Part shown: one piece after another, positions 21,962-46,579 of the stretch
Numbering within the stretch: the stretch's first letter is position 1
Layout: each line of letters begins with the position of its first letter
Virus record (IMG/VR): IMGVR_UViG_3300009481_000013
Span: 1-59,264 of that record
Reading direction: 5' to 3' (one strand)
Source: a virus
Lineage: Duplodnaviria > Caudoviricetes
DNA length: 59,264 bases
Position numbers and translations under genes: made by a program
The notes under the pieces: model-generated
Seen by the model: the letters and a program-made list of their open reading frames with translations, nothing else
Told to the model about the DNA's origin: nothing
Databases searched by the model: none

Positions 21962-22259
21962 GGGGGATCCATGGTTTCGACAGAGTAAGGAGAATGATTC
22001 ATACAAGGAAGCCAGCCAACAAATGCTTTAAATCAGTGTTGGAAAGTATAACTGCAAACGATAATGTTGAACAGTTCGCTCCTATTGCTCTAGCAGCGTA
22101 GAAAGCTGGGCGTCAACTGCCTGGGAACAGAAAGTTGAAAAGAGAAGAATGAATGGTAGAATGGAATGTCAGTTGCTGGACTCAAACCAGCTAACCTTGT
22201 AAGTATTTGAATTATTTGAGTTATTTTGGACAGCGGTTCGACTCCGCTATCCTCCACCA
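21962..22259 (+). ncRNA. ssrA: tmRNA; tag ANDNVEQFAPIALAA* (22054-22101)
   Basis: GGGGGAT/ATCCTCC acceptor with G3:U70, TTCGAC, GGAC-AGCGGTTCGACTCCGCT T-arm, ACCA; internal tag ORF ending ALAA. Confidence 0.95.
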
Positions 22260-22570: not shown

Positions 22571-22646
22571 GGCTTAGAGATCGAAGAGTCGAAATATCTG
22601 CCTGTCGAGCAGAATCAAACAGGTTCGAGTCCTGTCTAGGTCGCCA
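22571..22646 (+). tRNA. tRNA-Asp(GUC)
   Basis: CTGC-CTGTCGA-GCAG anticodon arm, T-arm, GCCA; weak D arm. Confidence 0.8.
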
Positions 22647-23204: not shown

Positions 23205-23276
23205 GCGGAAGACGTTGGTTCGATTCCAACTATCACAACCATAGTGATATCGTTTAGTGGAAGGATATCCGCACCA
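23205..23276 (+). ncRNA. circularly permuted tRNA-like RNA (T arm before D arm)
   Basis: GCGGA-AGAC-T arm-TATCAC/GTGATA-D arm-TCCGC-ACCA. Confidence 0.75.
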
Positions 23277-25314: not shown

Positions 25315-25389
25315 GCGAGAGAGTATCTATGGTTGATTGTCTCGTTGCCAACGAGAAGCTTGCGAGTTCGAATCTCGTCTCTCGCTCCA
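25315..25389 (+). tRNA. tRNA-Gly(GCC)
   Basis: cloverleaf, U73 CCA. Confidence 0.85.
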
Positions 25390-25392
25390 CAC

Positions 25393-25469
25393 GCCTTTGT
25401 AGCTCAGTCAGGTAGAGCGTTCCCTTGGTATGGGAAATGTCGTTAGTTCAAATCTAATCGGAGGCTCCA
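25393..25469 (+). tRNA. tRNA-Thr(GGU)
   Basis: cloverleaf, CCA. Confidence 0.9.
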
Positions 25470-25474
25470 ATATT

Positions 25475-25819
25475 ATGAAAGTTTTAGTTTGTGGCGGTAG
25501 GAAATACGACGATCAGGAATATGTGTCACAAGTTCTTGATATGATTCACAGCGATTATCCCATTACTTGCGTTGTACACGGCGCAGCAACAGGTGCCGAC
25601 ACATTTGGAGAATCTTGGGCAAAAGCAACCGGTATTGCTTTTAAACCCTACCCAGCAGATTGGGATACTTTCAAACACGCAGCAGGTTCAATCAGGAACG
25701 CTGAAATGCTAAAAGACAACCCAGATATCGAGCTAGTTATTGTGTTCCCAGGCAACAACGGAACCAATAATATGCGAAACAAAGCAGAAAAAGCAGGCAT
25801 TAACGTGTACTGCGCATAA
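25475..25819 (+). CDS. SLOG family (DUF2493/YspA-like) protein
   Basis: VLVCGGRKY…VHGAATGAD…YPADW…AGSIRN…FPGNNGT. Confidence 0.85.
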   Translation: MKVLVCGGRKYDDQEYVSQVLDMIHSDYPITCVVHGAATGADTFGESWAKATGIAFKPYPADWDTFKHAAGSIRNAEMLKDNPDIELVIVFPGNNGTNNMRNKAEKAGINVYCA

Positions 25820-26128: not shown

Positions 26129-26141
26129 GGGTAAGCATTGA

Positions 26142-26216
26142 GCGCCTAGGGAGGACGGTGTCCTCAGCGGGACTTATAATCCGCGAAAGTCGGCTCGTAC
26201 CCGAATGGGCGTACCA
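26142..26216 (+). tRNA. tRNA-Ile(UAU), atypical
   Basis: loop CT-TAT-AA, bulged anticodon stem, degenerate T loop, ACCA. Confidence 0.7.
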
Positions 26217-26999: not shown

Positions 27000-27004
27000 A
27001 ATAT

Positions 27005-27121
27005 GGGGGGCGATAGTGTAAGTTGGTATGCACGCCTGCAAGGACGCTTGAGGAAGCGAGGATTAATTACCCTTGTGACTGCGGGAAGGTTTGTAGGTTC
27101 GAACCCTACCGTCCCCCACTA
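27005..27121 (+). ncRNA. tRNA-like RNA with ~39-nt branched insert replacing the anticodon loop
   Basis: GGGGGGCG/CGTCCCCC, D arm GTGT/GCAC, CCTGC/GCGGG stem, GTAGG-TTCGAAC-CCTAC. Confidence 0.7.
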
Positions 27122-27344: not shown

Positions 27345-27419
27345 GGACAGGATCCCGAACGATTAGGGTCTGGATTGCAAACCCAGTATTAGTGAGTTCG
27401 ATTCTCACCCTGTCTTCCA
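27345..27419 (+). tRNA. tRNA-Cys(GCA)
   Basis: cloverleaf, U73 CCA. Confidence 0.85.
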
Positions 27420-27713: not shown

Positions 27714-27786
27714 GCGCCACGCGACGGATTCGCAGATTCGGTTTCTACCCTTATCGTTCTAGGTTCGACTCCTAGGTGGCGTGCCA
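27714..27786 (+). tRNA. tRNA-Arg(UCU), short D arm
   Basis: acceptor and T arm intact, loop TT-TCT-AC, GCCA. Confidence 0.7.
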
Positions 27787-27790
27787 TTTT

Positions 27791-27863
27791 GCCCTCTCTA
27801 AGGGATTTTAGACCTAGCTTTCCTAAAGCCGGTGGAACAGTTCGACTCTGTTAGAGGGTGCCA
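27791..27863 (+). tRNA. tRNA-Arg(CCU), short D arm
   Basis: acceptor and T arm intact, loop TT-CCT-AA, GCCA. Confidence 0.7.
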
Positions 27864-31178: not shown

Positions 31179-31689
31179 ATGTTAGGACAAGTATTTCATT
31201 ATTGGACTGTTAAATCAAGAGACCCTATCAAGAAAAGGTATTGGATTTGCTCTTGCAAATGTGGGAGTGAGAAATCTGTTTTTTGAAAGTAACTTAAAAT
31301 CAGAGAAGTCTAAAAGTTGCGGCTGTTGGGCAAAAGAAAAAGCATCCCGACCAAGAATAGATGACACCAATCCTGCTTTAAGAAGATTAATCCATTCCTA
31401 TCGATTCAATGCGAAGAGCAGAGGGTTAGAATGGAATCTTACAATAAAACAGTGTGAGGTCATTTTTCAAGAAAATTGTTTTTATTGCGGTGCTGAACCA
31501 AGCAAAGTAAGAAAGACAGGTATTAATCACTTTGTTTATAATGGGATTGATCGAAAAGATAACACCAAAGGGCATGATATTGGGAATGTTGTTTCTTGTT
31601 GTTTTATTTGTAATAGGGCAAAAAGTGTTCTAACAGTGGAAGAGTTTCTTGAATGGATTGAAAGAGTAAATACCTACCAACGCTCCTAA
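31179..31689 (+). pseudogene. HNH homing endonuclease split by +1 frameshift at T6 (31279-31284)
   Basis: frame 1 MLGQVF…WICSCKCGSEKSVF*; frame 2 ESNL…SCGC…CFYCG…GIDRKDN…NVVSCCFICN. Confidence 0.75.
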
Positions 31690-32612: not shown

Positions 32613-32689
32613 TTGCAGGTAGTATTAAAAAATAAAACGTCGGTCTGTTAAACCGAAAGATGCGAGTGGGAGTCTCGCCCTGTAAGCCA
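32613..32689 (+). tRNA. tRNA-Asn(GUU), degenerate D/T loops
   Basis: TCGGT-CTGTTAA-ACCGA arm, GCCA. Confidence 0.65.
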
Positions 32690-34092: not shown

Positions 34093-34176
34093 GGGATTGT
34101 GGCAGAGTGGCTTATGCACCTGACTCTTAATCAGCGCCGAAAGGCAACGTGGGTTCGAATCCCACCGGTCCCACCA
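34093..34176 (+). tRNA. tRNA-Lys(CUU) with long variable arm
   Basis: loop CT-CTT-AA, GCC-GAAA-GGC variable hairpin, ACCA. Confidence 0.85.
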
Positions 34177-34255
34177 ACAGGTGTAACTCAATTGGATTAA
34201 GAGTAACGGGCTTTTACCCTGGAAGTTGTGGGCATCCAATCCACCACCTGTACCA
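34177..34255 (+). tRNA. tRNA-Lys(UUU), degenerate T loop
   Basis: ACAGGTG/CACCTGT, loop CT-TTT-AC, ACCA. Confidence 0.7.
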
Positions 34256-41118: not shown

Positions 41119-41628
41119 ATGAACCAAGCTGAACTACAAGCTTTAATTGAAAAAGATTTCACGTTAAAGCAAATTACGAAAGAAACCGGGAAAGCTTCTA
41201 CAACTATACGATATTGGATTAAGAAGTACGGATTAAAACTGAAGAGGGGTCGACGCGGAAAACACCCAAAAGATTTTGTTGTTCAAAGAAGTTGTACTTG
41301 TGGTGAGACCAACCCTGACAAGTTTTACGGAAACAAAAAAAGTATCTGCGGTAAATGTCACAACAAGTATACCCTAGAAAAAGGAAGAGAAAACAGAAAG
41401 AAATCTATTGAATATCTTGGTGGTGAATGTGTGATTTGTAGTTGGAAAAAGTTTGGAAGTGGTTTTGACATTCACCATGTGGATCCAAATGAGAAAGATG
41501 TTGCCTTTGCTTCGATGAGAAGTTGGTGTTGGGAGCGAACGAAAAAAGAACTTGACAAATGTGTTCTTCTATGCAAATGTTGTCATGCGGGTGTTCATAG
41601 TAACGATTTGAAAATAGACCAGAATTAG
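41119..41628 (+). CDS. HNH homing endonuclease with N-terminal HTH
   Basis: TTIRYWIKKYG; CVIC…DIHHVDP…CVLLCKCCH. Confidence 0.85.
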   Translation: MNQAELQALIEKDFTLKQITKETGKASTTIRYWIKKYGLKLKRGRRGKHPKDFVVQRSCTCGETNPDKFYGNKKSICGKCHNKYTLEKGRENRKKSIEYLGGECVICSWKKFGSGFDIHHVDPNEKDVAFASMRSWCWERTKKELDKCVLLCKCCHAGVHSNDLKIDQN

Positions 41629-42339: not shown

Positions 42340-42626
42340 CAAGCAAGAACACTGATTGGTATTGGGACGAAGAGGAAAATAAGTATGTGCTGTTGGCAGG
42401 CGCGCTTACAGTTGAGTTAACTAAGCAACTTGCAGCAACAACAAGATCTATTTGGAAACTTGAAATTAACTGTGTGCCCAATTCTATCTATTACATCTAT
42501 CCTAAAGGAACAGAGGAAGAAGAAGATTTGCTAGAAGAAGCTGCGGAAAGAGCCATAAGTGTTATTGAGAATCGTATTGGAGCAATGCACTCTTACATAG
42601 ACATACTCAAGTATGTAAAGGATTAG
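42336..42626 (+). CDS. hypothetical protein
   Basis: coupled ORF. Confidence 0.55.
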   Translation: MTSKNTDWYWDEEENKYVLLAGALTVELTKQLAATTRSIWKLEINCVPNSIYYIYPKGTEEEEDLLEEAAERAISVIENRIGAMHSYIDILKYVKD

Positions 42627-42627
42627 A

Positions 42628-42849
42628 ATGACAACTAAAAAAGAAGATTCGTTTGATACATTTCCTTTTGCTGTTATAGGCGTAATGTTTATAATTTCTC
42701 TCATTTCGATAGGAACGATGTTCATCGTTGACTACAATGAACCCGAACGAGTAAGATGCGTAAAAGTAGCCAAACGCGGCTGTTCCAATGTTGATGAGAG
42801 TGGAGACTTTGGCGCTTGTATTGCTAAGGCTTGCGGAGAAGCTAAATGA
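42628..42849 (+). CDS. small membrane protein
   Basis: one TM helix, Cys-rich tail. Confidence 0.55.
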   Translation: MTTKKEDSFDTFPFAVIGVMFIISLISIGTMFIVDYNEPERVRCVKVAKRGCSNVDESGDFGACIAKACGEAK

Positions 42850-43058
42850 AAACAATTGCCCTCCTCGCTCTCGCACTCTCCCTTAACGGTTGTTGCTGTT
42901 GGGGACTTGGAGTAAAAGTCAGTGAGTCTTATGATTGTTTCGATAGCCAAAGAGAAGCTTATTGTCTTGAAGCAAAGACAGAAGAGGAGAAGATAGATTG
43001 TTTCGGAGAACTTCAGGAGAGATGTGTTCACGAGTCTTTGACAGGAAAGTTTGATTAA
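42846..43058 (+). CDS. small lipoprotein
   Basis: MKTIALLALALSLNGC lipobox. Confidence 0.6.
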   Translation: MKTIALLALALSLNGCCCWGLGVKVSESYDCFDSQREAYCLEAKTEEEKIDCFGELQERCVHESLTGKFD

Positions 43059-43067
43059 GTAATTTGT

Positions 43068-43154
43068 GCTCAGGTGGTGGAACTGGCAGACACGCCGCAT
43101 TTAGGCTGCGGTGTCCGAAAGGACGTGAGGGTTCGAATCCCTTCTTGAGTACCA
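43068..43154 (+). tRNA. tRNA-Leu(UAG)
   Basis: long variable arm, ACCA. Confidence 0.92.
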
Positions 43155-43157
43155 GCG

Positions 43158-43292
43158 CCGGAAGATGTAGGGTATTGAATCCCTACTGCAACTAAAGAGG
43201 GAAATGCTGACACATTTGCTTCTGCGAGGGAAAAAGGATATGTCAGTATCTTACAAAACCATCGTTCTTGTATAGCTCAACCAGAGCACCGG
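43158..43292 (+). ncRNA. circularly permuted tRNA-like RNA with inserted hairpin
   Basis: CCGG-AAGAT-T arm-TGCAA…TTGTA-TA-D arm-A-CCGG. Confidence 0.7.
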
Positions 43293-43299
43293 ATATTTT

Positions 43300-43376
43300 G
43301 GAGTATTCGTCTAGCGGAATAGGACGCCTGATTCTCAATCAGGAAAACGACGGTTCGAATCCGTCATACTTCACCA
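43300..43376 (+). tRNA. tRNA-Glu(CUC)
   Basis: cloverleaf, ACCA. Confidence 0.9.
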
Positions 43377-43379
43377 CCC

Positions 43380-43502
43380 CCGGTACGTGGGTTCGAATCC
43401 CACTGCACGTGTTTTTAATAGCTGTCACTATTAAAGAATACAAGAAGATTGTTGGCAGGCAATGCTTGACTGCAAGTGTATCGTCTATTGGAAGGACGCC
43501 GG
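43380..43502 (+). ncRNA. circularly permuted tRNA-like RNA with inserted hairpins
   Basis: CCGG-TAC-GTGGGTTCGAATCCCAC-TGCAC…GTGTA-TC-D arm-G-CCGG. Confidence 0.75.
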
Positions 43503-43525
43503 ATTTTTTATAAACTACTTACTGT

Positions 43526-43903
43526 GTGAGTAAAACAATAGCGCAGTTACTTAGCGAGCATCCTCAGTTCAATTTTGAACCAGGGATGCTTGTTTTGTTT
43601 CACAAGTCTCGAAAAGAAGAAGTAAAGTTGCGCCTCACAAGCCCTGAGACAGCCGTTCTATGGCAGACGGCAGACGCACTTATGGAACCAATCTTAAACG
43701 ACTACGGGACGTCTGCGGCGCTCATAGAGGTTCTAACTAACGCCACCGGCAAAGGAAGGTTTGAGATTCACCGCACGTCAGCCATTACAAACAAAAGATG
43801 GGTTGTTAAAGTGTTCAAAGGCGGTACATATGAAAATGGCGAGTCACTAGGGGAAACGCTAGCACTCGCCATTTTAGATTTATGGGACAGAAAGGTCAGA
43901 TAA
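43526..43903 (+). CDS. hypothetical protein
   Basis: GTG start 4 nt after CTACTTA. Confidence 0.6.
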   Translation: MSKTIAQLLSEHPQFNFEPGMLVLFHKSRKEEVKLRLTSPETAVLWQTADALMEPILNDYGTSAALIEVLTNATGKGRFEIHRTSAITNKRWVVKVFKGGTYENGESLGETLALAILDLWDRKVR

Positions 43904-44567
43904 TATCTTTTACGAATTCCTGAATATCTTCTAGAGTTACCATCAAACCTACATTTTCTAAAGTTATAAAAGCCATAGAAGCGATTCCGATGATTTCCCA
44001 TCTTTCATTATAGACTGGAGAGCCTGAACTTCCTGGTCTAGTTGGAATAGTGTGCATATCCAAGTCATAACCAAGCTTTTCGCGATTAACTCTTCCGGCA
44101 TAATAGCCTTCAAATTGGAGGATCATATTTTTATCGTGAATCCCCCAAGGTGCTGCTAGATTATATGTTTTTTCTCCTGGTTTTGGCATTTGATGTGCAA
44201 TAGGACTTATTGGTCGTTCTACCCTATCCATAGTAATTAAAAGGCACAAATCTGACTTTTTAGATACTTTTAAAATCAGAGTTCTATGTTTGTTAAGTTC
44301 TATGTCTAAAGCATATAATAAACCATCTTGAGGTTCGCAAATATGACCAGCAGTAAGGATAAAAGTGTTGTTTTCAATATGTTGAATAATAACACCAGAA
44401 CCTGAGCCTAGTTTTTGTCCGTTTTGTTCGGAAATAACCTTGACAAAAGATTCTCTTGGTGGTATATTAGTTGTTGGGATAAGATTTTTTAATGAGACGC
44501 AGGCGATTGGATTTATTAAAATGGCAAATCCCAATACAAGAGCGAATGTTCGTAGTAATGTTTTCAT
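43896..44567 (-). CDS. trypsin-like serine protease (lipoprotein)
   Basis: TAGH, DL, PGSSGSP triad motifs; signal peptide ending IAC. Confidence 0.88.
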   Translation of the reverse strand: MKTLLRTFALVLGFAILINPIACVSLKNLIPTTNIPPRESFVKVISEQNGQKLGSGSGVIIQHIENNTFILTAGHICEPQDGLLYALDIELNKHRTLILKVSKKSDLCLLITMDRVERPISPIAHQMPKPGEKTYNLAAPWGIHDKNMILQFEGYYAGRVNREKLGYDLDMHTIPTRPGSSGSPVYNERWEIIGIASMAFITLENVGLMVTLEDIQEFVKDII

Positions 44568-44626: not shown

Positions 44627-45955
44627 ATGGCTAAAAATACATATGTTCTCGATACAAGCGTGTATCTAACTAACTTTCACGCACTCTACGAGTACAAGAA
44701 TCACGATATCGTGGTGCCCCTAAAAGTTTTAGAAGAAATTGACAAACACAAGAATAGGCAAGATTCTGTGGGACATCAGGCTCGAAACACAATTCGAGAG
44801 CTTGATCGTCTTAGGGAAAAAGGCAGCCTCTCGAAGGGCGTTCGTCTCGGCAAGGGTAAGGGCATTTTGCGAGTGGAAGGATCATCAACTTCTTTCCTTC
44901 CAGAAGATCTGTCCCCAAAAGTTCCAGACAATATGATTATTTCTACCGCATTGGCAGAGCGCCATGACGCTGCGCACAACGCTCCAAGTCGTAAGGTGAT
45001 TTTGGTTACTCGCGATATTAATATGCGAGTGATTTGTGATTCAATTGGTCTTAAGTGCGAATCATATGATCCAGAAAAGGCAGTTCAAGACAGAAATGAG
45101 CTTTATTCTGGATATGCAGAAGTGGAAGTAGACGAAGAGTTTTTAGATCGTTTTTATGCTGGTGAAGTAAACAATCTCCCTCCAGAGATTATTGATGGTG
45201 GTTTCAAATACCAACCCAATGAATTCATAATGCTAAGAGCTGCTGGAAACGAAAAGAAGACTGCTCTTACGCGCATCTTTAAAAGTGGTAAACTTGAAAA
45301 AGTTAAAGAGTCTAAAAGAAAGATTTGTAACGTAAAGACACGCAACCGCGAACAATCTTTTGCTATGGACTTGCTGTTAGATCCTGATGTCAAGGTTGTT
45401 ACTCTTGTGGGTAAAGCAGGTTCAGGCAAGACTTTATGTGCCATTGCAGCTGGACTCCATCAAACAATCGACGAAGACAAATATCGACGTTTAATTGTTT
45501 CGAGACCCATTCAACCAATGGGAAAAGATATTGGATTCCTTCCAGGTGATATTAACGATAAGATGCTTCCTTGGTTGGCTCCCATTCAAGACAATTTGCA
45601 GACCCTTCTTGGTGACAGGGCTCAGCTTGAAGAGCATATGTTTCAGGGCACGATTGAAATCGAAGCTTTGACTTATATTCGTGGTCGTTCTATTTCTGAT
45701 GCTTACATTATTATCGATGAGTCACAGAACTTGACGATGCACGAGTTGAAGACTATTATCACTCGCGTTGGAGAGAATACTAAGATTGTTCTTACTGGCG
45801 ACATCGAACAGATTGATAATGCTTTTATTAACGATGTGACGAATGGTTTGACTCACGCAGTAGAGAAGTTTAAACATTCTGAGCTTGCTGGTCACGTAAC
45901 TTTGGTCAAGGGCGAAAGGAGCGCGGTCGCGACTCTCGCAGCCAAGGTACTATAG
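44627..45955 (+). CDS. phoH: PIN-domain PhoH family ATPase
   Basis: YVLDT PIN motif; GKAGSGKT, GFLPG, RGRS, IDESQN, GDIEQID. Confidence 0.93.
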   Translation: MAKNTYVLDTSVYLTNFHALYEYKNHDIVVPLKVLEEIDKHKNRQDSVGHQARNTIRELDRLREKGSLSKGVRLGKGKGILRVEGSSTSFLPEDLSPKVPDNMIISTALAERHDAAHNAPSRKVILVTRDINMRVICDSIGLKCESYDPEKAVQDRNELYSGYAEVEVDEEFLDRFYAGEVNNLPPEIIDGGFKYQPNEFIMLRAAGNEKKTALTRIFKSGKLEKVKESKRKICNVKTRNREQSFAMDLLLDPDVKVVTLVGKAGSGKTLCAIAAGLHQTIDEDKYRRLIVSRPIQPMGKDIGFLPGDINDKMLPWLAPIQDNLQTLLGDRAQLEEHMFQGTIEIEALTYIRGRSISDAYIIIDESQNLTMHELKTIITRVGENTKIVLTGDIEQIDNAFINDVTNGLTHAVEKFKHSELAGHVTLVKGERSAVATLAAKVL

Positions 45956-46009: not shown

Positions 46010-46579
46010 ATGTTTGTTAGAATTGAAAAACCAGGAAGTTGGGATGAAAAAACAGTTATTGTTCAATGTGAGGAGTGTAATAGAGAAAGAGAAATCAAAT
46101 GGACTACTGCTCGTATGAAAAAAGAGCATCTGTGTAGATCGTGTTCAATTAGTATTGCGAATACTGGAGCAAAGCGCTCTGAAGAAGCTAAAAAAAGAAT
46201 GAGTATTGCTCAAAGAAAATGTGGCAATGGTGGGATAAGAATGAACCAGAGCGGCGGCTATAAACAAGTTATTGTAGATGGCTATCATCCAAGAAAAAAA
46301 GATAGAAAAGGCGGCAACTATATTATGGAACACATTCTCATTGTAGAGAAAAGATTAGGTCGCTTCTTGGAATCGCGCGAAATTGTTCACCACATTGACG
46401 GTAACAAACAAAATAATGATGATTCTAATCTTTTTTTGTGTTCTGGAGAAACAAAAAAAGAATCTAGACAAATCCACAATGCTTGCCATACATCAGCTGA
46501 AAAATTAGCATTTGACATGCTCAAGAGAGGTATGGTAGAGTTTGTGGACGGTCATTATCAACTTAAGGAAAAACAATGA
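46010..46579 (+). CDS. HNH homing endonuclease (NUMOD3-like motif)
   Basis: RSEEAKKRMS; EHILIVE…LGR…VHHIDGNKQNNDDSNL. Confidence 0.88.
   Translation: MFVRIEKPGSWDEKTVIVQCEECNREREIKWTTARMKKEHLCRSCSISIANTGAKRSEEAKKRMSIAQRKCGNGGIRMNQSGGYKQVIVDGYHPRKKDRKGGNYIMEHILIVEKRLGRFLESREIVHHIDGNKQNNDDSNLFLCSGETKKESRQIHNACHTSAEKLAFDMLKRGMVEFVDGHYQLKEKQ

What the first reader, a model, noticed from the sequence alone, without database searches (positions are those of the whole stretch)
43380..43502. Third permuted tRNA-like RNA; with the second it brackets tRNA-Glu
Seen, 3 nt after tRNA-Glu CCA: CCGG-TAC-GTGGG TTCGAAT CCCAC-TGCAC-[~67 nt incl. TTTAATAG/CTATTAAA]-GTGTA-TC-GTCT ATTGGAA GGAC-G-CCGG-ATTTTTT. 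The acceptor pair covaries with copy 2 (TGCAA/TTGTA vs TGCAC/GTGTA), which favours the permuted pairing. A weaker alternative has the D half of copy 2 pairing with this T half, nesting tRNA-Glu in an anticodon loop. Inference: modular tRNA-elbow scaffolds with exchangeable cargo.
Basis: partly seen in the sequence, partly recalled or inferred. Interest (0 to 1): 0.85.

Follow-up and report, generated by a model that had tools for sequence, protein, structure and literature searches.

The report
Permuted tRNA-like RNA beside phage tRNA-Glu
A large phage carries, right after its tRNA-Glu gene, a tRNA-derived RNA whose halves are in swapped order, so that the acceptor arm is closed and carries a 67-base insert; this is the layout of bacterial YrlA "Y RNA-like" tRNA mimics, but without their Ro60-binding part or a Ro60 gene nearby.

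Summary
Window 43380-43502 (+) folds as closing stem, T arm, capped acceptor stem with a 67-nt insert, D arm, closing stem. All 18 core pairs are intact, and the T loop (TTCGAAT) and D loop (ATTGGAA) are canonical. It starts 3 nt after tRNA-Glu.

Keeping each T arm and shuffling its flanks predicts 0.015 such completions in the window; 2 are seen.

It is one of five such elements: three in this phage fragment and two in its only close tRNA-rich relative. The neighbouring copy 2 has an ortholog there, with 5 compensatory pair changes and a conserved insert. Copy 3 itself has no ortholog.

The layout is that of the tRNA-like module of YrlA RNAs, described in print as circularly permuted tRNAs with closed acceptor stems. 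Membership fails:
- there is no room for a Ro60-binding helix;
- no TROVE gene lies in 59 kb;
- the Rfam YrlA model gives no hit.

Best reading (0.5): a Ro60-independent tRNA mimic or scaffold, cut out of the tRNA operon transcript by tRNA processing. Rivals are an unselected relic of tRNA duplication, and a cassette in which RNase P excises the insert.

No expression data exist. I class it as a new variant of a known kind.

The parts
43380..43383 (+). Closing stem, 5' strand (CCGG). It takes the place of a tRNA anticodon-stem 3' strand.
   Evidence: Pairs with 43499-43502 in the MFE fold and in the descriptor hit. It starts 3 nt after the ACCA of tRNA-Glu.
43384..43386 (+). Variable-loop equivalent (TAC).
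   Evidence: C48 faces U15, so the Levitt pair is not canonical in this copy.
43387..43403 (+). T arm GTGGG-TTCGAAT-CCCAC.
   Evidence: Over 19 nt (43385-43403) it is identical to the T-arm region of tRNA-Lys at 34147-34165.
43404..43408 (+). Acceptor-stem 3' strand (TGCAC). It can be extended to 43410 as 7 positions with one A.G mismatch.
43409..43475 (+). 67-nt insert capping the acceptor stem. Predicted hairpin 1 is 43409-43441 and hairpin 2 is 43449-43475, with a 7-nt single-stranded linker between them.
   Evidence: MFE folds. No homolog in any held locus by blastn. No Rfam match.
43476..43480 (+). Acceptor-stem 5' strand (GTGTA).
43481..43498 (+). U8-C9, D arm GTCT-ATTGGAA-GGAC, and G26.
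   Evidence: It is closest to the D half of copy 1 (16 of 18). Read by eye, it is of the same type as the adjacent tRNA-Glu D arm.
43499..43502 (+). Closing stem, 3' strand (CCGG).
43503..43509 (+). A + T6 tract after the closing stem.
   Evidence: A simple scan lists the D-arm hairpin plus this tail as terminator-like, but the count in the region (3) is not above shuffles (mean 2.8).
43300..43376 (+). tRNA-Glu (ctc), lying between copy 2 and copy 3.
   Evidence: ARAGORN. Rfam tRNA 61.2 bits.
43158..43292 (+). Copy 2: permuted tRNA-like element with a 76-nt insert and degenerate T and D loops. It lies between tRNA-Leu(tag) and tRNA-Glu.
   Evidence: Its ortholog is L009:4676-4806.
23205..23272 (+). 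Copy 1: compact permuted tRNA-like element, 2 nt after tRNA-Ile. Its acceptor cap reads ACCAT.

Best explanation
Copy 3 is a real, tRNA-derived, circularly permuted tRNA-like RNA module with the architecture of the YrlA tRNA-like domain.

Inferred mechanism:
- It is transcribed on the + strand together with tRNA-Leu, copy 2 and tRNA-Glu.
- Its 5' end is made by 3' processing of tRNA-Glu, which ends 3 nt upstream. Its 3' end lies in the U tract.
- It folds into an L shape through the T-loop/D-loop elbow.
- Its acceptor arm is closed and extended by a 67-nt two-hairpin insert, so it cannot be charged.
- It has no anticodon loop, so it cannot decode.
- It therefore acts as a stable tRNA mimic or scaffold. 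The tRNA fold gives nuclease resistance and a docking surface for proteins that recognise the tRNA elbow, and the insert projects from the acceptor end.
- It works without a Ro60-binding helix.

Shown: the anatomy, the non-chance occurrence, family membership with four other elements, and purifying selection on the neighbouring paralog (copy 2).

Inferred: expression, processing, the L-shaped fold and the function.
For: - Anatomy: all four helices are intact, with a canonical T loop, GG in the D loop, U8, A14 and G26.
- Chance: expected 0.015 completions in the window against 2 observed. The strict descriptor gave 3 hits in 236,982 bases, all of them these elements and none a tandem-tRNA junction.
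- Family: the model from copy 1 alone finds copy 3 (E = 5.6e-7) and L009:4290-4359 (E = 2.7e-7). The 3-seed model finds the G001 ortholog of copy 2 at 33.8 bits.
- Pairing across the family: 90 of 90 core-pair cells are canonical, and 12 of 18 positions show changes on both sides. Three of the five elements were chosen by a descriptor that demands pairing.
- Levitt pair: G15-C48 or A15-U48 in 4 of 5 elements.
- Selection on the paralog: copy 2 against its ortholog has 33 consensus pairs, with 5 compensatory, 3 one-sided and 0 broken. The insert is alignable at 72% over 60 nt, although the flanking PIN-PhoH protein is only 75% identical.
- Position: all five elements lie on the tRNA strand, 2-9 nt after a tRNA's CCA, and are followed by a T-rich tract.
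- The halves are not fresh copies of a present tRNA. The best non-self match of copy 3's D half is copy 1's D half.
- Precedent: YrlA has the order V-T-AS-D, is modified by TruB and DusA, and has a crystal structure close to tRNA. Its AS length varies between species (PMC4201824, sections 5, 6 and 10 and passages read; bioRxiv 10.1101/312249, passages read).
- My 3-seed model recognises the Bxz1 YrlA just upstream of the Ro60 gene of that phage (21.4 bits, E = 7.5e-6 in 3 kb).
Against: - Copy 3 has no ortholog. In G001, tRNA-Glu runs straight into the homolog of ORF 43526-43903, so there is no direct evidence of selection on copy 3.
- Its folding energy is not exceptional (z = -1.39).
- Its 15-48 pair is U.C.
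- Covariance models do not separate this layout from tandem tRNA junctions, which score up to 41.3 bits in other phages.
- By eye, the D half resembles the 5' half of the adjacent tRNA-Glu, including the start of its anticodon loop. That fits a duplication by-product.
- Covariation among paralogs could reflect descent from different tRNAs rather than selection.
- The elements were found in only two related phage fragments. None was found near PhoH in 10 further metagenome loci, none in the complete relative G003, and no convincing one in four other phage tRNA regions totalling 128,319 bases.
Confidence: 0.5

Rival explanations
1. Unselected relic. Copy 3 is what is left of a tandem duplication of a Glu-type tRNA gene: the 3' half of one copy, a spacer, and the 5' half of the next. 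It may be transcribed but has no function of its own.
For: - Tandem tRNA genes give exactly this T arm-stem-D arm layout (also warned of in PMC4201824 Methods, passage read).
- Copy 1's acceptor cap reads 7-nt strand + ACCA + T + 7-nt strand, like a tRNA-tRNA junction with a 1-nt spacer.
- Copy 3's D half has a Glu-type D arm and a tail like the start of tRNA-Glu's anticodon loop (by eye).
- Copy 3 is lineage-specific.
- HNH endonuclease genes lie scattered through the array.
Against: - None of copy 3's 18 core pairs is broken, and its loops are canonical.
- Its halves match no present tRNA beyond the generic T arm, so it is not recent.
- The paralog copy 2 is clearly conserved, with compensatory changes.
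- Two outer half-genes would have had to be lost cleanly at five separate sites.
Confidence: 0.25
2. Processing cassette. The permuted fold is cut by RNase P at the 5' side of the acceptor 5' strand, and by a 3' processing enzyme after the acceptor 3' strand. This either releases the insert as a small RNA or leaves a nicked two-piece tRNA-like RNA, possibly with a CCA end.
For: - M. smegmatis YrlA is cut by RNase P and receives CCA (PMC4201824, section 8 passages).
- Copy 1 encodes ACCA at exactly the position of a tRNA 3' end.
- L009:4290 has a 7-bp acceptor stem.
- Copy 3 can form 6 of 7 acceptor pairs.
Against: - Copy 3 and copy 2 have only 5 contiguous acceptor pairs and no CCA. The same paper names a 7-bp stem as the main RNase P determinant.
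- Nothing marks the insert as an sRNA. It has no terminator tail of its own and no conserved seed.
Confidence: 0.13
3. True Y RNA. Copy 3 binds a Ro60 (Rsr) protein encoded elsewhere in the phage or in the host, and tethers it to an exonuclease as YrlA does.
For: - It has the same tRNA-like architecture.
- Other large phages with tRNA arrays and tmRNA, such as Bxz1, carry Ro60 plus YrlA.
- The window is only about 33% of the genome.
Against: - The closing stem is 4 bp, and tRNA-Glu ends 3 nt upstream, so there is no room for a Ro60-binding helix or a GNCGAA(N)G motif.
- No TROVE gene in the 59-kb window (0 of 1) or in G001, G002 and G003 (0 of 3).
- RF02553 gives no hit on copies 1-3 at E <= 10.
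- The T and D stem sequences conserved in YrlA are not those of copy 3.
Confidence: 0.05
4. Operon punctuation or terminator. The structure plus the U tract ends the tRNA transcript before ORF 43526-43903.
For: - A + T6 follows the closing stem directly.
- A simple scan lists 43482-43498 plus its tail as terminator-like.
- Copy 3 is the last RNA gene before a protein gene.
Against: - The hairpin next to the U tract has only 5 pairs, and the tail starts 4 nt later.
- The terminator-like count in the region equals shuffles (3 against 2.8).
- Copy 2 has the same tail but is followed at once by tRNA-Glu.
- A terminator needs no T loop, D loop or acceptor stem.
Confidence: 0.05
5. Nested reading. 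The D half of copy 2 and the T half of copy 3 form one tRNA-like fold, with tRNA-Glu sitting in its anticodon loop.
For: Both closing strands are CCGG, and 4 of 5 acceptor pairs would form.
Against: - In G001 the ortholog of copy 2 closes on itself with 6 bp, and no T half follows tRNA-Glu.
- The permuted pairings are 5 of 5 in both copies.
- The MFE folds choose the permuted form.
Confidence: 0.02

Closest known systems
YrlA (Y RNA-like A; Rfam RF02553), the tRNA-like module of bacterial and phage Y RNAs
   Same: - Same order: stem, variable region, T arm, closed acceptor stem-loop, D arm, stem.
- Same tRNA tertiary nucleotides.
- No free CCA and no anticodon loop.
- The acceptor stem-loop varies in length.
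- Sometimes encoded beside tRNAs, and found in large phages that also carry tRNA arrays.

[quoted passage not shown]
   Different: - No Ro60-binding helix or motif; the closing stem is only 4 bp and is hemmed in by tRNA-Glu.
- No TROVE gene in 59 kb.
- No RF02553 hit.
- Different T and D stem sequences.
- Several copies per genome, inside a tRNA operon.
- A 67-nt two-hairpin insert in the acceptor cap.
Circularly permuted tRNA genes (Cyanidioschyzon merolae type; recalled, and seen only in search listings)
   Same: The 3' half lies upstream of the 5' half, and the acceptor strands are joined by an intervening sequence.
   Different: Those genes yield a normal tRNA after the ends are ligated and the intervening sequence is removed. 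Here no anticodon loop can be assembled, the acceptor stem has 5-6 pairs, and no CCA or discriminator context is present in copy 3.
Two-piece (permuted) tmRNA, Rfam RF04321
   Same: A permuted tRNA-like domain in which the acceptor strands are joined in the precursor. The phage also uses tmRNA.
   Different: - No tag reading frame or pseudoknots.
- No RF04321 match on copy 3.
- The phage has a standard one-piece tmRNA at 21962-22259.
Tandem tRNA gene junctions
   Same: T arm, acceptor strands and D arm come in the same order. Such junctions score up to 41.3 bits with my model and up to 28.3 bits with RF02553.
   Different: In junctions both arms belong to intact tRNAs, and the 'closing' and acceptor strands do not pair. 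In copy 3 both arms are orphans and all stems pair.

Membership tests
YrlA (RF02553) | T arm, closed acceptor stem-loop and D arm in that order, with tRNA-like tertiary nucleotides. | tested here: met
   A model built from these elements also aligns the Bxz1 YrlA.
YrlA (RF02553) | Ro60-binding helix formed by the 5' and 3' ends, carrying the GNCGAA(N)G motif. | tested here: not met
   The closing stem is 4 bp. tRNA-Glu ends 3 nt upstream. The motif is absent from 43377-43386.
YrlA (RF02553) | Encoded within about 4 kb of a Ro60/TROVE gene on the same strand. | tested here: not met
   PF05731 six-frame search: 0 matches in the 59,264-bp window and 0 of 3 related records. The control phage Bxz1 does ring. 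The window is about 33% of the genome, so a distant gene is not excluded.
YrlA (RF02553) | Score at or above the Rfam gathering threshold (69 bits). | tested here: not met
   No RF02553 match on copies 1-3 at E <= 10. L009:4283-4372 scores 20.3 bits. Note that the real Bxz1 YrlA reaches only 32.5 bits.
YrlA (RF02553) | Near-invariant T-stem and D-stem sequences (consensus GCGGG/CCCGC and GCUC/GAGC). | tested here: not met
   Copy 3 has GTGGG/CCCAC and GTCT/GGAC, against the consensus shown. L009:4290 shares the T arm, and copy 2 and its ortholog share the D stem.
YrlA (RF02553) | Pseudouridine and dihydrouridine made by TruB and DusA; binding to Rsr. | not testable with these tools
   Needs RNA from cells.
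tRNA (RF00005) | Canonical order with an anticodon arm and an open acceptor stem. | tested here: not met
   No ARAGORN or Rfam tRNA call in 43380-43502.
Permuted tRNA gene | Halves that can be rejoined into a complete tRNA with an anticodon loop and a 7-bp acceptor stem. | tested here: not met
   No anticodon-loop sequence lies at either end. There are 5 contiguous acceptor pairs, or 6 of 7.
Permuted tmRNA (RF04321) | Match to the family model; tag reading frame and pseudoknots. | tested here: not met
   No match in 43140-43540 at E <= 10.
Intrinsic terminator | Stable G+C-rich hairpin directly followed by a U tract. | tested here: inconclusive
   A 5-pair hairpin at 43482-43498 has its tail starting 4 nt later. 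It is listed by the scan, but counts equal shuffles.

The most novel reading that the evidence does not exclude
This phage clade has turned permuted tRNAs into a Ro60-independent, multi-copy natural 'tRNA scaffold'. The units are dropped directly behind tRNA genes. Host tRNA-processing enzymes define their ends. The L-shaped fold stabilises different RNA inserts and presents them at the closed acceptor end, or directs their excision. The compact, insert-free copies may act as decoys for host factors, or for defence factors, that read the tRNA elbow.
Probability: 0.2. Interest if true: 0.75.

Novelty: new variant of a known kind. Interest (0 to 1): 0.55.

Why it matters
YrlA-type tRNA mimics have so far been defined by their partnership with Ro60, and the binding partner of their tRNA-like module is still unknown. 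A set of the same permuted tRNA folds that lack the Ro60-binding part, sit inside a phage tRNA operon and carry different inserts would have two consequences. It would show that the tRNA-like module can work alone. It would also give a simple system for asking what binds a tRNA elbow with a closed acceptor arm.

The work also has a practical use. It shows that tandem tRNA junctions are strong false positives for any model of this layout, and that an orphan-arm test separates them from real elements.

Tried and rejected
- Rfam at gathering and at E <= 10 gave nothing on copy 3 apart from chance-level rows.
- RF02553 on the whole window returned only tandem-tRNA places.
- A search for the copy 2 insert in IMG/VR by pattern found only G001.
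- A compact-element pattern in IMG/VR gave 6 stretches. Five were ordinary tandem tRNA junctions and one was G001 itself.
- PIN-PhoH relatives: 3 IMG/VR loci and 11 metagenome loci (one a duplicate of the G001 stretch, one matching the G003 stretch). Only G001 has the elements.
- The R2 hit in the complete relative G003 is the 3' end of a tmRNA.
- Sequencing runs: no RNA holder is listed. Three DNA runs were found, and contigs of X1 and X2 each cover 42600-44100 with no differences. Those two may be the source samples, so they are not independent. X3 does not cover copy 3. No variation could be used.
- MAFFT could not align the five elements because of the inserts, so I used model-guided and coordinate-based alignments instead.
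- A short reading frame in the copy 2 insert (23 codons, against 17 in G001) was considered and rejected. I read it by eye. Its start codon lies inside the conserved hairpin and the frames diverge.
- attP-like tRNA fragment: rejected, because a matching D half is present and is not needed for attP.
- Pfam and PHROGs on 37 ORFs found no RNA ligase, CCA-adding enzyme or Ro60 among those tested.
- Four other phage tRNA regions (128,319 bases) gave 8 relaxed-descriptor hits. Only 2 had both arms orphan, and neither has U8 or a GG D loop.
- The Annual Review on bacterial Ro60 (PMC10870794) is not held.
- The supplements of PMC4201824, which list phage YrlA places, could not be seen. They may show YrlA-like RNAs away from Ro60.

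Full report
**Setting.** The window is an IMG/VR virus record of 59,264 bp, estimated at about 33% of a genome. All of the following lie on the + strand:
- a one-piece tmRNA and 26 ARAGORN tRNAs between 21.9 and 43.4 kb;
- 22 Rfam tRNA matches, four of which ARAGORN misses;
- small ORFs and HNH endonuclease genes interspersed among them;
- a PIN-PhoH gene at 44627-45955.

No phage in INPHARED resembles the region, apart from matches to single tRNAs.

**The observation.** tRNA-Glu(ctc) ends at 43376, and CCC follows. The element then reads as follows:

| Part | Sequence | Coordinates |
|---|---|---|
| Closing stem, 5' strand | CCGG | 43380-43383 |
| Variable region | TAC | 43384-43386 |
| T arm | GTGGG-TTCGAAT-CCCAC | 43387-43403 |
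| Acceptor 3' strand | TGCAC | 43404-43408 |
| Insert | 67 nt | 43409-43475 |
| Acceptor 5' strand | GTGTA | 43476-43480 |
| U8, C9 | TC | 43481-43482 |
| D arm | GTCT-ATTGGAA-GGAC | 43483-43497 |
| Position 26 | G | 43498 |
| Closing stem, 3' strand | CCGG | 43499-43502 |
| Tail | ATTTTTT | 43503-43509 |

- The unconstrained MFE fold of 43377-43510 gives this permuted cloverleaf, with the insert as two hairpins.
- The energy is not exceptional: z = -1.39, and 21 of 200 shuffles fold as well. That is usual for tRNA-sized RNAs and is no support by itself.
- Neither ARAGORN nor Rfam sees a tRNA, a YrlA or a permuted tmRNA here.
- No ORF of 50 aa or more covers the element on the minus strand. 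The only + strand frame over it (43268-43513) runs through tRNA-Glu.

**Is it chance?**
- I wrote a descriptor requiring:
  - a 5-bp T stem with T loop T[TG]C[GA]ANN;
  - a 5-7-bp acceptor stem closing an insert of 3-160 nt;
  - U8;
  - a 3-4-bp D stem whose loop starts with A;
  - one nucleotide, then a closing stem of at least 4 bp, 3-5 nt before the T arm.
- On both strands of 236,982 bases (window, its relatives, five other phage tRNA arrays, pieces of Bxz1) it hit three places: copy 1, copy 3 and the G001 ortholog of copy 2. In all three, both arms lie outside any tRNA.
- I kept each of the 35 T arms on the window's + strand and shuffled its flanks 400 times. Six of 14,000 trials completed the descriptor, which predicts 0.015 for the window; 2 are observed.
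- A looser descriptor is less clean. It gave 4 hits in the window, two of them spurious, against 0-2 per whole-window shuffle in 20 shuffles.

**A small family.**
- A covariance model from copy 1 alone (23205-23272) found copy 3 (33.0 bits, E = 5.6e-7). It also found a compact element in the related phage G001, L009:4290-4359 (34.1 bits, E = 2.7e-7). The next match, at 26.8 bits, was a tRNA 3' end.
- A model from these three found the G001 ortholog of copy 2 at 33.8 bits, but the window's own copy 2 at only 16.4 bits, below many tandem-tRNA places.
- Copy 2 scores low because its loops are degenerate: an 8-nt T loop (TATTGAAT) and a 5-nt D loop (AACCA). Its ortholog has TTCGACT and AATGGATA.
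- Over the 18 core pairs of the five elements, 90 of 90 cells are canonical and 12 positions change on both sides. The 15-48 pair is G-C or A-U in four elements, and U.C in copy 3.
- Three of the five were selected by a descriptor that demands pairing, and paralogs may descend from different tRNAs. These counts therefore describe the family; they do not prove selection.

**Comparative evidence.**
- The PIN-PhoH protein recovered three IMG/VR relatives and eleven metagenome loci, one of them a duplicate of the G001 stretch and one matching the G003 stretch.
- Only G001 (75% protein identity, 35 tRNA matches) shares the tRNA array.
- In G001 the order is tRNA-Leu(aag), the copy 2 ortholog, tRNA-Glu(ctc). 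The homolog of ORF 43526-43903 follows at once, so copy 3 is absent.
- Copy 2 and its ortholog give a consensus structure of 33 pairs: 5 compensatory, 3 one-sided and 0 broken. It includes a long hairpin inside the insert. The inserts align at 72% over 60 nt. Copy 2 is therefore a conserved structured RNA.
- Copy 3's insert has no homolog in any held locus.
- Copy 1 and L009:4290 are also lineage-specific. At the tRNA-Ile to tRNA-Phe spacer, G001 has only CCGG-N16-CCGG-ATTTT.
- The complete relative G003 (189,712 bp, 2 tRNAs) has no element. The one model hit there is the end of a tmRNA.
- Public runs gave no RNA holder and no sequence variation.

**Origin.**
- The elements are tRNA-derived. 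Copy 3's T-arm region is identical over 19 nt to that of tRNA-Lys.
- Its D half is closest to copy 1's D half (16 of 18). By eye it is of the Glu type, and its tail resembles the start of the anticodon loop of the adjacent tRNA-Glu.
- Copy 1's acceptor cap reads as a 7-nt strand, ACCA, T, and a 7-nt strand. That is exactly what a tRNA-tRNA junction with a 1-nt spacer looks like.
- Real tandem junctions in five other phages matched my compact pattern and scored up to 41.3 bits with the model.
- A tandem duplication of one tRNA followed by loss of the outer halves is therefore the likely source.
- It also means a covariance score alone cannot identify such elements. What separates them is that both arms are orphans and that the acceptor and closing strands pair.

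**Comparison with the known.**
- YrlA RNAs have the order V, T arm, acceptor stem-loop, D arm, flanked by a Ro60-binding stem. They are modified by TruB and DusA, and one is cut by RNase P and receives CCA (PMC4201824: sections 5 and 10 read in full, passages of sections 6, 8 and 18).
[quoted passage not shown] It also notes variable acceptor, anticodon-stem and variable-loop sizes, and nearly invariant T and D stems (bioRxiv 10.1101/312249, passages).
- As a positive control I used Mycobacterium phage Bxz1.
  - RF02553 finds its YrlA at 129979-130055 (32.5 bits), just upstream of the TROVE gene at 130313-131344.
  - My model aligns the same place (21.4 bits).
  - That RNA has a long terminal stem outside the tRNA-like core.
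- Copy 3 fails the membership tests:
  - a 4-bp closing stem, with tRNA-Glu 3 nt away;
  - no GNCGAA(N)G motif;
  - no TROVE gene in the window or in three relatives;
  - no RF02553 match;
  - different T and D stem sequences.
- L009:4290 shares the YrlA-type T arm and gets a weak full-length RF02553 alignment that skips the inner Ro60-binding helix (20.3 bits, E = 0.11).
- So the element works like, or at least looks like, the tRNA-like module of YrlA, but it is not a member of that family as defined.
- Five literature searches and passages of four further papers turned up no description of Ro60-less permuted tRNA-like RNAs in phage tRNA arrays. The supplements of PMC4201824 could not be seen.

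**Mechanism.**
- Best reading (0.5): the element is co-transcribed with the tRNAs. It is freed at its 5' end by 3' processing of tRNA-Glu and ends in the U tract. It folds into an L shape, and acts as a stable tRNA mimic or scaffold whose closed acceptor arm carries the insert.
- None of these steps is shown. What is shown is the anatomy, its non-chance occurrence, and selection on the paralog.
- Rivals and their weights:
  - unselected relic, 0.25;
  - RNase P-directed cassette, 0.13;
  - true Ro60 partner, 0.05;
  - terminator, 0.05 (the scan result equals shuffles);
  - nested reading, 0.02.

**How general is it?** In four more phage tRNA regions (two megaphages, Mendera, DSS3_MAL1; 128,319 bases), a relaxed descriptor gave 8 hits. 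Two had both arms orphan, and neither has U8 or a GG D loop. On this small sample the elements are confined to the window's clade.

**Verdict.** I class the element as a new variant of a known kind, namely a YrlA-type permuted tRNA mimic. Interest is moderate.

Noticed in passing
window 23205-23272: Copy 1, a compact permuted tRNA-like element 2 nt after tRNA-Ile. Its acceptor cap holds ACCA in the place of a tRNA 3' end, and the element is followed by ACCATTTT.
   Followed up: partly
window 43158-43292 and L009:4676-4806: Copy 2 has lost the canonical T and D loops (TATTGAAT, AACCA), while its G001 ortholog keeps them (TTCGACT, AATGGATA). The phage with the degenerate copy 2 is the one that also has copy 3.
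   Followed up: partly
L009:4283-4372: A compact permuted element in G001 between tRNA-Pro and tRNA-Leu(tag). It has a 7-bp acceptor stem, an 8-bp bulged closing helix, and a T arm identical to that of the Bxz1 YrlA. The RF02553 match is weak (20.3 bits).
   Followed up: partly
L013:3251-3328: At the tRNA-Ile to tRNA-Phe spacer, where the window has copy 1, G001 has only CCGG-N16-CCGG-ATTTT. This could be an emptied or ancestral site.
   Followed up: no
L009:4459-4582: A 124-nt stretch between two tRNA-Leu genes in G001, with a 9-bp outer stem, two separate T-arm-like hairpins and a GNRA-like capped hairpin. No tool calls it as a tRNA.
   Followed up: no
window 22571-22643, 27345-27416, 32613-32686, 34177-34252; also 26140-26215, 27000-27120, 27715-27860: Four Rfam tRNA matches that ARAGORN does not call. 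Further tRNA-like stretches have acceptor stems and CCA ends, but an odd or missing D arm or a long insert.
   Followed up: no
window 21962-22259 and L013:1085-1475: Phage-encoded tmRNA with the same tag peptide (ANDNVEQFAPIALAA) in the window and in G001.
   Followed up: no
window 25330-25452 and loci L027-L031: Tandem tRNA genes with 1-5-nt spacers are strong false positives for YrlA-type models: RF02553 up to 28.3 bits, my model up to 41.3 bits.
   Followed up: yes
window 44627-45955, 31261-31689, 41119-41628, 46010-46579, 25430-25819: A PIN-PhoH fusion lies 1.1 kb downstream of copy 3. HNH endonuclease genes, and a SLOG (YAcAr) protein, are scattered through the tRNA array.
   Followed up: no
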